In this document: piece after piece, positions 15,716 through 16,143 of the stretch | Numbering within the stretch: the stretch's first letter is position 1 | Layout: the number at the start of each line of letters is the position of its first letter | From: a virus | Length of the DNA: 64,000 bases | Virus record (IMG/VR): IMGVR_UViG_3300034988_000024 | Direction: 5' to 3' (one strand) | The notes under the pieces: generated by a model | Told to the model about the DNA's origin: nothing | The model's input: the letters and a program-made list of their open reading frames with translations, nothing else | The model's database searches: none | Position numbers and translations under genes: made by a program

Positions 15716-15792
15716 TGGTGCGGAGGACGGGATTCGAACCCGCATCCAGCGGTTTTAAAGACCGCCCGCTCGTCCGGTTGAGCTTCCCCCGC
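15716..15792 (-). tRNA. suppressor-type tRNA, anticodon TTA (reads UAA, and UAG by wobble); encoded CCA
   Basis: Acceptor GCGGGGG/CCTCCGC, D-stem GCTC/GAGC, anticodon stem GCGGT/ACCGC with canonical loop CTTTAAA (U33, A37), T-arm GCGGG-TTCGAAT-CCCGT. Confidence 0.65.
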
Positions 15793-15813
15793 GTGGGGCC
15801 GAAGCCCCTGGTG

Positions 15814-16143
15814 TCAGGCAGCCTCCGGCTCGAAAGCCAGTGGTAGCCTCCGTAAAAATCCTTTCCCCTCGGGCGCGACGGCGATGGCTGTCGGCTCGTT
15901 CTGCAGGTCGGGCTCGTCGAACTGAGAGAACCTGATGTTGCGAGCGTCGAGATCGAACGCCAGGTCCATCAGCTCGTCGATGTCCCGGACCTCCAGGATG
16001 ACGATGGTGTTGGAGTTTTCGTACCAGTCCCGGTCCACCTCGGGGTGCTCTTCGACGAACAGTCTTTGAGCGTGGCAGGCCTGGGCTGCACGAAGGCCAG
16101 GTGAGAGGTCGCCCCTCACGACGATGTAGAGCTTGCCCATCAT
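15814..16143 (-). CDS. peptidyl-tRNA hydrolase, PTH2 family
   Basis: KLYIVVRGDLSPGLRAAQACHAQ matches the PTH2 signature (VVRxDLxxGKxAAQxxHA). Confidence 0.6.
   Translation of the reverse strand: MMGKLYIVVRGDLSPGLRAAQACHAQRLFVEEHPEVDRDWYENSNTIVILEVRDIDELMDLAFDLDARNIRFSQFDEPDLQNEPTAIAVAPEGKGFLRRLPLAFEPEAA

What the first reader, a model, noticed from the sequence alone, without database searches (positions are those of the whole stretch)
15716..16143. Ochre-suppressor-type tRNA (anticodon UUA) next to a PTH2-family peptidyl-tRNA hydrolase
The minus-strand tRNA has a canonical cloverleaf with anticodon loop CUUUAAA (anticodon UUA, reading UAA and, by U34 wobble, UAG) and an encoded CCA. The adjacent gene encodes a PTH2-type peptidyl-tRNA hydrolase (VVRGDLSPGLRAAQACHA). 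Genes in this window still terminate with TAA/TAG/TGA, so this is not simple genome-wide recoding. It could mean stage-specific readthrough, recoding elsewhere in the genome, or manipulation of host termination. The PTH2 pairing suggests coupled tRNA and peptidyl-tRNA handling.
Basis: seen in the sequence. Interest (0 to 1): 0.75.

Follow-up and report, generated by a model that had tools for sequence, protein, structure and literature searches.

The report
Phage stop-codon-reading tRNA beside PTH2-like gene
A large phage genome carries a real tRNA whose anticodon reads the stop codon UAA, placed directly after a peptidyl-tRNA-hydrolase-like gene; the same gene pair recurs in many large phages, but this stretch of genome uses the ordinary genetic code, so its purpose is still open.

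Summary
ARAGORN and Rfam both call a tRNA at 15716-15792 (-) with anticodon loop CUUUAAA (anticodon UUA) and an encoded CCA. Two diverged homologues keep all 21 base pairs, five of them through compensatory changes, which fixes the loop register. The cloverleaf is not fully canonical: A8 replaces U8, and there is one extra nucleotide before the anticodon stem.

The gene 21 nt upstream (15814-16143, -) has the PTH2 fold. It is a divergent phage family, not an orthologue of archaeal Pth2.

The 64 kb use the standard code: 88% coding, with stops TGA 48, TAG 26 and TAA 25. No gene is split at a stop codon. No structural genes lie in the window, so recoding of late genes cannot be excluded.

The main new result is that the pairing is conserved. 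PTH2-like genes sit next to a CUA or UUA tRNA in cluster C mycobacteriophages, Lak megaphages and many uncultured huge phages. Only one UCA tRNA was seen near such a gene, in a locus of the other class. Other lineages instead carry tRNAs with a 9-nt anticodon loop upstream of the gene.

Best reading: a functional ochre/amber suppressor tRNA co-transcribed with a tRNA-ester hydrolase, acting in a standard-code phage. The biological purpose is not shown. It is a new member of a known kind.

The parts
15716..15792 (-). tRNA gene with anticodon UUA (loop CUUUAAA), discriminator A73 and encoded CCA. Non-canonical points: A8, and one extra nucleotide between position 26 and the anticodon stem.
   Evidence: ARAGORN. 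Rfam RF00005, 55.7 bits. Fold. Identical in 7 near-identical contigs. Compensatory changes in L032 and L035.
15795..15808 (-). GGGGC-TTCG-GCCCC hairpin in the 21-nt spacer between the PTH2-like stop codon and tRNA position 1. It has no U tract. A role as a processing or stability element is inferred only.
   Evidence: Read directly from the sequence. Invariant in 7 contigs. Not reported as a terminator.
15814..16143 (-). PTH2-fold protein, 109 aa, member of a divergent phage family (PHROG 1866).
   Evidence: Pfam PF01981, E = 1.6e-9. PHROG 1866, E = 1.2e-16. AF2 pLDDT 94.8. Foldseek to Pth2/Bit1, TM 0.75-0.80. PDB profile search, E = 1.6e-9. NCBIfam Pth2 equivalogs far below cut-off.
16140..16553 (-). 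Upstream ORF of 137 aa. Its stop overlaps the PTH2-like start by 4 nt (ATGA). Predicted as a long helical hairpin; function unknown. It travels with the PTH2-like gene in the closest clade.
   Evidence: ORF list. tblastn synteny in L031-L036, weak in L053 and L064. Homologues. AF2 pLDDT 87. No fold match at E < 1.
15406..15714 (-). Downstream ORF of 102 aa. Its ATG begins 2 nt after the tRNA's 3'-terminal A and has no Shine-Dalgarno sequence. Function unknown.
   Evidence: ORF list. JGI gene calls use the same start. Sequence. Other genes in the window have clear AGGAG-type sites.
16744..16772 (-). Promoter-like site TTGACA-17-CATGAT (10 of 12) upstream of the 137-aa ORF. It is a candidate promoter for an operon of p137, PTH2-like gene, tRNA and p102.
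   Evidence: Consensus scan only: 2 sites found against 0.4 expected. No terminator-like site lies between it and the tRNA.

Best explanation
The locus is a two-part phage translation module, a PTH2-fold hydrolase gene followed on the same strand by a nonsense-suppressor tRNA gene.

Shown: the tRNA is a structurally constrained gene with anticodon UUA. It sits 21 nt after the PTH2-like gene, with no terminator-like site between them. The same gene pair, with anticodon CUA or UUA, is conserved across very distant large phages, both standard-code and recoded.

Inferred: the tRNA is cut out of an operon transcript (p137, PTH2-like gene, tRNA, p102) and charged by a host synthetase. Lys or Leu is most plausible for A73 with U35, but this is unproven. 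It then competes with release factors at UAA and, through U34 wobble, at UAG. Because close relatives switch between UUA and CUA, UAG is probably the codon that is always covered. In this standard-code genome the result would be partial readthrough of phage and host stop codons and not a changed code. The PTH2-like enzyme would hydrolyse the ester bond of peptidyl- or N-acyl-aminoacyl-tRNA, returning tRNA that is lost to drop-off or non-stop translation, which such readthrough would increase.
For: tRNA reality and register.

Operon context: overlapping p137/PTH2 genes, a 21-nt spacer, a promoter-like site and no terminator.

Isolated position: this tRNA lies 9.1 kb from the window's 12-tRNA array at 1-6607 and is the only tRNA outside it.

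PTH2 fold.

Conservation of the pair:
- Mycobacteriophage ScoobyDoobyDoo: PTH gene, then tRNA(cta) 181 nt downstream.
- Mycobacteriophage Alice: gp150 'peptidyl-tRNA hydrolase', then 'tRNA-suppressor (cta)' 250 nt downstream.
- Lak-B4 and Lak-A1: tRNA(tta) about 500-600 nt upstream.
- LR745208: tRNA(tta) 33 nt downstream. LR756500 and LR756501: tRNA(cta).
- Closest clade, with PTH2 64-69% identical and MVP-p378-p137-PTH2 synteny: UUA in L032, CUA in L034, L035 and L036.

Counts: of 41 PTH2-like clusters (70% identity, at least 1 kb of flank), 10 have a CUA/UUA tRNA within 1.2 kb. Twenty suppressor tRNAs lie within 1.2 kb of the gene and 2 lie further away. Only one UCA tRNA was seen, in a locus of the other class.

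Standard code: it gives the best coding score and density in the window, and the best score in the first 50 kb of LR745208 and in Alice.

Literature precedent: standard-code jumbo phages XacN1 (two CUA suppressors plus a Pth, no readthrough targets found; PMC5852040) and Atu_ph07 (UCA suppressor plus two Pth; PMC6102473). TAA-suppressor tRNAs are tabulated in phage surveys (bioRxiv 10.1101/2021.08.26.457843).
Against: - No readthrough target was found. In-frame neighbouring genes all have their own Shine-Dalgarno site and start codon. Extensions after TAA have no coding signal, -0.03 bits per codon.
- TAA and TAG together end about half of the window's genes, with no nearby back-up stops. The median extension is 37-38 codons, against 16 after TGA. 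An efficient suppressor would therefore damage the phage's own proteins.
- The charged amino acid is unknown. Nearest-neighbour comparison with other phage tRNAs was uninformative.
- A8 and the extra nucleotide could impair ordinary decoding.
- The Lys preceding the AQ motif of Pth2 aligns to Leu in this family. That this Lys is catalytic (K18 in S. solfataricus) rests on my memory of the literature. Hydrolase activity is therefore not assured.
- In other lineages the PTH2-like gene is paired with tRNAs that have 9-nt anticodon loops, never with both types. This hints that the partner's role may not be suppression as such.
Confidence: 0.5

Rival explanations
1. Partial recoding. The late (structural and lysis) genes, which lie outside this window, contain in-frame TAG and/or TAA. 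The tRNA is the code-change device, as in TAG-recoded Lak and crAss-like phages.
For: The window has no recognisable capsid, terminase or tail genes, and only about 10 kb beyond each end could be reached. Lak megaphages, which are TAG-recoded according to the literature (10.1101/2021.08.26.457843), carry the PTH2-like gene with a tRNA(tta) nearby. Recoding confined to late genes is documented in that paper.
Against: TAG (26) and TAA (25) are ordinary stop codons here, not depleted ones, unlike the depletion step proposed as the route to recoding. The endolysin-like amidase at 1326-2324 is intact and ends in TAA. The standard code gives the best coding score. No release-factor or tRNA-synthetase family is among the 25 Pfam families listed, of 36 matched. 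The same module is present in more than 200 cluster C mycobacteriophage genomes annotated in the standard code and in a standard-code-like 50 kb of LR745208.
Confidence: 0.15
2. Counter-defence kit against host systems that attack translation. The stop-codon tRNA occupies UAG/UAA A sites that ribosome-dependent mRNA interferases of the RelE type prefer to cut, or it otherwise buffers termination. The PTH2-like enzyme clears peptidyl-tRNA from stalled ribosomes, or de-blocks aminoacyl-tRNA acetylated by GNAT toxins.
For: Only RF1-type codons are covered: UAG always, UAA sometimes, and UGA not at all among the suppressor-linked loci. A tmRNA lies next to the PTH2-like gene in L017 and L090 and in the same tRNA cluster in Alice. 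The window also encodes RNA-repair-type proteins (HAD_SAK_2, radical SAM) beside its tRNA array. Phage tRNAs as anti-defence tools are established (PMC11555353). RelE's preference for UAG and Pth's reversal of TacT acetylation are recalled from the literature and were not checked here.
Against: There is no direct evidence. No defence system or toxin target is identified and the host is unknown. The amber bias could simply reflect that amber suppressors are the best tolerated.
Confidence: 0.15
3. The tRNA is a dedicated partner or substrate of the PTH2-like enzyme and not a general suppressor. It would be an 'orthogonal' tRNA kept out of normal sense-codon decoding, used for release-factor-independent resolution of ribosomes at stop codons or for a non-ribosomal aminoacyl-tRNA-dependent reaction.
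For: The pair is tightly linked, 21-250 nt apart in many lineages. In other lineages the partner is replaced, mutually exclusively, by tRNAs that also look unfit for normal decoding: a 9-nt loop N-GUAAUGA-N, or A34 anticodons AAA and AAC (21 of 41 clusters, 0 with both). The window's tRNA itself has A8 and an extra nucleotide. The discriminator base varies between A and G among close homologues. A conserved protein of unknown function, p137, is translationally coupled to the PTH2-like gene. A precedent exists for phage enzymes using charged tRNA outside translation (PMC13219725).
Against: PTH2 enzymes are known to act on free peptidyl-tRNA, not on the ribosome. There is no GGQ-type domain in the operon. 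Most suppressor partners elsewhere are fully canonical tRNAs. No mechanism is demonstrated.
Confidence: 0.15
4. Decayed or accidental tRNA: a mutated Lys, Leu or Gln tRNA pseudogene with no function, lying next to the PTH2-like gene by chance.
For: A8 and the extra nucleotide are unusual. The fold z-score against shuffles is only -1.8.
Against: All 21 pairs are kept with 5 compensatory changes across phages whose neighbouring proteins are only 45-69% identical. G18G19 and the T-loop are intact and CCA is encoded. The suppressor anticodon recurs next to the same gene family in unrelated phage groups.
Confidence: 0.03

Closest known systems
PTH / suppressor-tRNA gene pair of cluster C mycobacteriophages (Ceeclamvirinae: Bxz1, Alice, Myrna, ScoobyDoobyDoo)
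   Same: A PTH2-like gene (42-52% identical over about 80% of the protein) is followed on the same strand by a stop-codon-reading type-I tRNA. The genomes are large and tRNA-rich and are annotated in the standard code.
   Different: The anticodon there is CUA (amber only); here it is UUA. The spacing there is 180-250 nt; here 21 nt. In Alice the pair sits inside the tRNA/tmRNA cluster; here it stands alone, 9 kb from the tRNA array. I found no paper discussing the pair.
Suppressor tRNAs of standard-code jumbo phages (Xanthomonas phage XacN1; Agrobacterium phage Atu_ph07)
   Same: These jumbo phages have near-complete tRNA sets plus suppressor tRNA(s) and a peptidyl-tRNA hydrolase. They show no recoding, and no readthrough targets were found (PMC5852040, PMC6102473).
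   Different: The anticodons are CUA (XacN1) and UCA (Atu_ph07). Adjacency to the Pth gene is not reported. XacN1's Pth was not among the tblastn hits to this protein.
Suppressor tRNAs of stop-codon-recoded phages (Lak, crAss-like, Jade, Agate and others; genetic codes 15 and 4)
   Same: Phage-encoded tRNAs that decode a stop codon. Lak phages also carry the PTH2-like gene near a tRNA(tta).
   Different: Those genomes have in-frame recoded stops, low coding density in code 11 and depletion of the recoded stop (10.1101/2021.08.26.457843). This window has none of these features. TAA reassignment is not among the phage code changes identified in that paper.
E. coli ochre suppressors (supG/supL Lys, supB Gln, supC Tyr), from established genetics recalled from memory
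   Same: Anticodon UUA, which reads UAA and UAG by wobble. These suppressors act in a standard-code cell by competing with release factors, typically at low efficiency.
   Different: They are laboratory mutants of sense tRNAs. This one is a naturally conserved gene of unknown amino-acid identity with an unusual core (A8, extra nucleotide).
Archaeal/eukaryotic Pth2 (for example S. solfataricus 1xty, M. jannaschii 2zv3, human Bit1 1q7s)
   Same: Same fold, TM 0.75-0.80. Shared motifs are VVRxDL, AQxxHA and the T-A-I/V strand.
   Different: Only 20-26% identical. It fails the NCBIfam Pth2 equivalog cut-offs. The Gly-Lys preceding AQ is replaced by Gly-Leu-Arg/Gln, and DAG by an invariant E-P-D. 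It is encoded by a bacteriophage.

Membership tests
tRNA (Rfam RF00005) | Covariance-model score above the gathering threshold, with a full cloverleaf | tested here: met
   55.7 bits against 29, model positions 1-71 of 71. ARAGORN call.
tRNA (Rfam RF00005) | Base pairs maintained by compensatory change in homologues | tested here: met
   21 of 21 pairs kept, 100% of cells paired, 5 pairs changed on both sides. Slid controls give 41-57% paired. Only 3 sequences.
tRNA (Rfam RF00005) | Conserved core nucleotides (U8, a single nucleotide at position 26, G18G19, T-loop) | tested here: inconclusive
   G18G19 and GTTCGAATC are present. Position 8 is A, and there are two nucleotides between the D and anticodon stems. 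Both features are shared by L032 and L035.
Nonsense (ochre) suppressor tRNA | Anticodon complementary to a stop codon, in a 7-nt loop with U33 | tested here: met
   Loop C32-U33-U34-U35-A36-A37-A38. The register is fixed by the compensatory 32:40 pair.
Nonsense (ochre) suppressor tRNA | Aminoacylated, and inserts an amino acid at UAA/UAG in vivo | not testable with these tools
   Needs tRNA charging assays, reporters or mass spectrometry. Identity inference from sequence was uninformative.
Stop-codon-recoded phage genome (code 15/4-like, or a hypothetical TAA reassignment) | In-frame recoded stops, fragmented genes, and higher coding density under the alternative code | tested here: not met
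   In the window, the standard code gives the best density (0.84) and score; every reassignment lowers both. Extensions after TAA are non-coding. Same-frame gene pairs have their own SD and start. Late genes outside the window were not seen.
PTH2 superfamily (Pfam PF01981) | Profile match above the Pfam gathering score | tested here: met
   38.4 bits against 23, E = 1.6e-9, profile positions 2-101 of 115.
PTH2 superfamily (Pfam PF01981) | PTH2 alpha/beta fold | tested here: met
   AF2 pLDDT 94.8. The top 14 Foldseek PDB hits are all Pth2/Bit1, TM 0.72-0.80, E down to 1.3e-6.
Canonical Pth2 enzyme (NCBIfam NF003314 / TIGR00283 equivalogs) | Score above the equivalog cut-off | tested here: not met
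   28.3 bits against 126, and 22.4 against 82.
Canonical Pth2 enzyme (NCBIfam NF003314 / TIGR00283 equivalogs) | Catalytic residues. Lys of the GKGK-x-AQ motif and Asp of DAG are taken from my memory of the S. solfataricus work, not checked here. | tested here: inconclusive
   In profile alignments the Lys column is Leu in this family, next to a variable Arg/Gln/Lys. The Asp column is an invariant Glu (E77). R10, D12, Q21, H24 and T85 are conserved.
tRNA-Pyl (ARAGORN's label for CUA tRNAs in relatives) | Compact core: one nucleotide between the acceptor and D stems, a small D loop without G18G19, a 3-nt variable loop, and pylS/pylBCD genes nearby (features recalled from established knowledge) | tested here: not met
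   There are two nucleotides after the acceptor stem, an 8-nt D loop with GG, and a 4-5-nt variable loop. No Pyl genes are among the 25 Pfam families listed, of 36 matched.
Phage 'PTH2-like + stop-codon tRNA' module (defined here from annotated mycobacteriophages and metagenome loci) | A PTH2-like gene and a CUA/UUA tRNA on the same strand within about 1.2 kb | tested here: met
   Window: 21 nt apart, same strand. Reference cases. Ten of 41 independent clusters.

The most novel reading that the evidence does not exclude
The PTH2-like protein and its neighbouring tRNA form an obligate two-component system of large phages in which the tRNA is not an ordinary decoder. The tRNA would be either a stop-codon reader (CUA/UUA) or, in other lineages, a tRNA with a 9-nt GUAAUGA loop or an A34 anticodon. 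Together with the hydrolase it would resolve or protect ribosomes at RF1-type stop codons (release-factor-independent termination or rescue, or protection from A-site toxins), or feed a non-ribosomal aminoacyl-tRNA reaction. This would be a previously undescribed phage translation-control or counter-defence module, testable in cluster C mycobacteriophages.
Probability: 0.25. Interest if true: 0.8.

Novelty: new member of a known kind. Interest (0 to 1): 0.5.

Why it matters
Suppressor tRNAs in phages that keep the standard code are a known puzzle. XacN1's authors looked for readthrough targets and found none.

This locus adds a UAA-reading example. More usefully, it points to a conserved partner. 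The same PTH2-like gene sits next to a CUA/UUA tRNA from Mycobacterium phages to Lak megaphages. In other lineages the partner is a tRNA with an expanded anticodon loop.

That linkage turns a vague question ('why carry a suppressor?') into a concrete genetic test in a tractable system: delete gp150 and/or tRNA 151 of phage Alice or Bxz1 in M. smegmatis. It could reveal how large phages tamper with termination, ribosome rescue or host toxins.

If the tRNA turns out to be only a weak readthrough tRNA with a housekeeping hydrolase beside it, the finding is ordinary.

Tried and rejected
- DNA similarity of 14000-20000 to 50,697 phage records: no match.
- Exact search for the anticodon arm in IMG/VR: no match.
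- Alternative loop register (9-nt loop UCUUUAAAA, or a 6-bp stem): rejected. The 32:40 pair covaries, while 27:45 does not pair in L032 or L035.
- Readthrough candidates, meaning same-frame gene pairs separated by one stop (13407/12000, 37578/36678, 61786/61138, 3067/3448, 30574/29713): rejected. Each downstream gene has its own AGGAG-type site and start codon. In-frame neighbours occur at about the one-third rate expected by chance.
- Alternative codes (TAG, TAA, TGA or TAA+TAG read as sense): all lower the coding score and density in the window.
- Inferring amino-acid identity by nearest-neighbour alignment to 200 phage tRNAs, or to tRNAs of the same genome: uninformative.
- Walking to the rest of the genome: only ±10 kb could be fetched.
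- Function of the co-transcribed 137-aa protein: no Pfam, PHROG or NCBIfam hit. It is a confident helical-hairpin model with no PDB fold match at E < 1.
- Literature on a PTH2/suppressor pairing: nothing found.
- tRNA-Pyl or tRNA-Sec identity: rejected on structure and gene context.
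Full report
**What is at the coordinates**

ARAGORN finds 13 tRNAs in the window. Twelve form an array at 1-6607 on the plus strand. One stands alone at 15716-15792 on the minus strand and is labelled tRNA-Stop, anticodon tta. Rfam's tRNA model scores it 55.7 bits against a gathering score of 29, and aligns CUUUAAA as the 7-nt anticodon loop. The sequence is GCGGGGGAAGCUCAACCGGACGAGCGGGCGGUCUUUAAAACCGCUGGAUGCGGGUUCGAAUCCCGUCCUCCGCACCA, with CCA encoded and A73 as discriminator.

Two details depart from a textbook cloverleaf. 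Position 8 is A, not U. There are also two nucleotides between the D stem and the anticodon stem. In this sequence the extra G could pair with U45 to give a 6-bp stem.

**Is it a real gene, and is the register right?**

The tRNA is identical in seven near-identical metagenome contigs, which says little by itself. Two diverged relatives are more informative:
- Their neighbouring proteins are only 45-69% identical to the window's, and they share the order MVP - p378 - p137 - PTH2.
- Both carry a clearly homologous tRNA: L032 with UUA and L035 with CUA.

On the three-sequence alignment all 21 cloverleaf pairs are standard pairs. Five pairs are changed on both sides, three of them in the anticodon stem. 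These include the loop-closing pair 32:40 (U-A to A-U). Sliding the partners by 1-3 columns drops pairing to 41-57%. The optional 27:45 pair does not hold in the relatives. The loop is therefore 7 nt and the anticodon is at positions 35-37. The 8-9-nt-loop alternative is excluded. A8 and the extra nucleotide are conserved features of this clade, not damage.

**The neighbouring gene**

The ORF at 15814-16143 (-), 109 aa, ends 21 nt before tRNA position 1.
- It matches Pfam PTH2 (E = 1.6e-9, above the cut-off) and PHROG 1866.
- With 24 homologues, AlphaFold gives pLDDT 94.8.
- The 14 best PDB matches are all archaeal Pth2 or human Bit1, TM 0.72-0.80.

It is not a canonical Pth2 orthologue. NCBIfam's Pth2 equivalog models score 28 and 22 bits against cut-offs of 126 and 82. 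In profile alignments the Lys preceding the AQ motif is Leu in this family, and the DAG aspartate is an invariant Glu. Which residues are catalytic is from my memory of the S. solfataricus literature. Esterase activity on tRNA esters is likely but not assured.

**Operon context**

A 137-aa ORF (16140-16553) overlaps the PTH2-like start by 4 nt. A promoter-like TTGACA-17-CATGAT site lies upstream of it at 16772-16744. No terminator-like site lies between that and the tRNA. A GGGGC-UUCG-GCCCC hairpin fills the spacer before the tRNA.

The next ORF (15406-15714, 102 aa) starts 2 nt after the tRNA's CCA and has no Shine-Dalgarno sequence, whereas other genes here have strong AGGAG sites. The tRNA is thus probably excised from a polycistronic transcript. 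This is inferred.

The 137-aa protein is a confident helical hairpin with no family or fold match.

**Genome and genetic code**

The window belongs to a large phage-like genome. Contigs of 113 and 183 kb carry identical proteins, and 10 further tRNAs lie just upstream of the window. Identified genes include an amidase with a peptidoglycan-binding domain, DNA methylases, SSB, HNH nucleases, radical-SAM and RNA-repair-type proteins, and a major-vault-protein homologue. No capsid, terminase or tail genes were recognised.

A codon-model gene caller gives 99 genes and 88% coding, with stops TGA 48, TAG 26 and TAA 25.
- Sequence downstream of TAA stops has no coding signal.
- Every same-frame gene pair separated by one stop has its own ribosome-binding site and start codon.
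- Reading TAG, TAA, TGA or TAA+TAG as sense lowers both coding density and total coding score.

The visible 64 kb therefore use the standard code. Recoding confined to unseen late genes cannot be excluded.

**The pairing is conserved (the main new result)**

I searched the PTH2-like family in a protein database, in IMG/VR and JGI metagenome contigs, and in GenBank phages. Then I scanned the flanks for tRNAs.

In annotated cluster C mycobacteriophages the 'peptidyl tRNA hydrolase' gene is followed by a suppressor tRNA:
- ScoobyDoobyDoo: gene 79, then tRNA(cta) 181 nt later.
- Alice: gp150, then 'tRNA-suppressor (cta)' 250 nt later.

The other flanking tRNAs differ between these two subclusters.

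Other phage groups show the same pairing:
- Lak-B4 and Lak-A1 have a tRNA(tta) 500-600 nt upstream of the gene.
- The 485-kb phage LR745208 has a tRNA(tta) 33 nt downstream.
- LR756500 and LR756501 have tRNA(cta) downstream.
- In the window's own clade the partner is UUA (window, L032) or CUA (L034, L035, L036).

After clustering the proteins at 70% identity and requiring at least 1 kb of flank on each side, there are 41 clusters:
- 10 have a CUA or UUA tRNA within 1.2 kb.
- 21 instead have unusual tRNAs immediately upstream.
- None has both, and 7 have no tRNA nearby.

Only one UCA tRNA was seen, and it lies in a locus of the second class. Since U34 and C34 variants alternate among close relatives, UAG, the RF1-specific codon, is the codon that is always covered.

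The 'unusual upstream tRNAs' are called Ile(aat), Phe(aaa) and Val(aac) by ARAGORN. Inspection shows that the Ile(aat) group have a 5-bp stem closing a 9-nt loop N-GUAAUGA-N, with flanking bases that usually cannot pair. I could not explain them.

**What it most likely does**

Shown: a constrained tRNA with a stop-codon anticodon, co-located and probably co-transcribed with a PTH2-fold protein, as one instance of a widespread phage gene pair that exists in both standard-code and recoded genomes.

Inferred: the tRNA is charged by a host enzyme and competes with release factors at UAA and UAG, giving partial readthrough. The hydrolase recycles tRNA from peptidyl- or N-acyl-aminoacyl-tRNA.

Against a strong, general suppressor: half of this phage's own genes end in TAA or TAG, with no nearby back-up stop. 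XacN1's authors found no readthrough targets for its CUA suppressors (PMC5852040).

Three rivals remain open:
- Recoding of unseen late genes.
- A counter-defence role, for example against A-site mRNA interferases or tRNA-acetylating toxins. This fits the amber/ochre bias and the nearby tmRNAs in L017, L090 and Alice.
- A dedicated tRNA-enzyme pair that does not act through ordinary decoding, suggested by the mutually exclusive 9-nt-loop partners.

A dead pseudogene is very unlikely.

**Comparison with what is known**

Suppressor tRNAs and peptidyl-tRNA hydrolases in tRNA-rich jumbo phages are documented (PMC5852040, PMC6102473). TAA-suppressor tRNAs are tabulated in a phage survey (10.1101/2021.08.26.457843). 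The adjacent PTH/suppressor annotation already sits in more than 200 GenBank mycobacteriophage records. This locus is therefore a new member of a known kind, with UUA instead of CUA.

What I did not find in four literature searches is any discussion of the conserved PTH2-like/suppressor pairing, or of the alternative 9-nt-loop tRNAs. That is where the interest lies.

**Verdict**

Interest is moderate (0.5).

Noticed in passing
window 18141-21095 (+): A 984-aa protein matches major vault protein domains (MVP_shoulder E = 6e-15, Vault_3, Vault_4), which is unexpected in a phage genome. It is conserved in relatives L031 (60% identity) and L032, in the same gene order as the PTH2 module.
   Followed up: partly
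L013-L108 (e.g. L074 3915-3991, L048 1010-1085, L016 3661-3737 and 3826-3901, L091 3543-3694): In about half of the PTH2-like lineages the gene is preceded by odd tRNAs, never together with a suppressor tRNA. 'Ile(aat)' has a conserved 9-nt anticodon loop N-GUAAUGA-N. 'Phe(aaa)' has CUAAAGA or GUAAAGA, and 'Val(aac)' has UAACUA. All have A34, and most have G37. Their nature is unexplained.
   Followed up: partly
window 3968-4042, 5216-5289, 6185-6260, 6531-6607 (+): Four tRNAs with Leu anticodons (UAG, GAG, UAA, CAA) are only 74-77 nt long and lack the long variable arm expected of bacterial tRNA-Leu. They sit beside two normal long-arm Leu tRNAs (5342-5429, 5925-6008). Mycobacteriophage ScoobyDoobyDoo shows the same short Leu tRNAs (L109).
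   Followed up: no
window 1-6607 (+) and L009 1-10784: An array of at least 22 tRNAs is grouped by amino acid (Thr x3, Arg x3, Met x2, Leu x6, and others) and interspersed with ORFs. One tRNA-Met (1014-1102) is 89 nt long. A Ro60-type vWA protein and a SpoU methylase are encoded among the upstream tRNAs.
   Followed up: no
window 15406-15714 (-): The 102-aa ORF starts 2 nt after the tRNA's 3' CCA with no Shine-Dalgarno sequence. tRNA 3' processing would leave an essentially leaderless mRNA.
   Followed up: no
window 6718-8790 (+): A radical-SAM protein, a 197-aa ORF and a HAD_SAK_2 domain ('Swiss Army Knife' RNA-repair family) lie next to the tRNA array, suggesting investment in tRNA repair or modification.
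   Followed up: no
window 39891-41920 (-): Two long ORFs (39891-41102 and 40844-41920, stop to stop) overlap by about 260 nt in different frames, and both have coding-like codon-position GC. This could be a programmed frameshift, an assembly indel, or true overlap.
   Followed up: no
L017 4594-4946; L090 5450-5805; L118 25925-26359 (Alice): tmRNA genes lie within 0.3-1.2 kb of the PTH2-like gene in two metagenomic phages, and in the same tRNA cluster in mycobacteriophage Alice.
   Followed up: no
window 14134-14982 (+): An ABC/AAA_23-type ATPase of about 270-280 aa, with a Walker A match and a weak PtuA/RecF-like hit, is encoded convergently close to the module.
   Followed up: no
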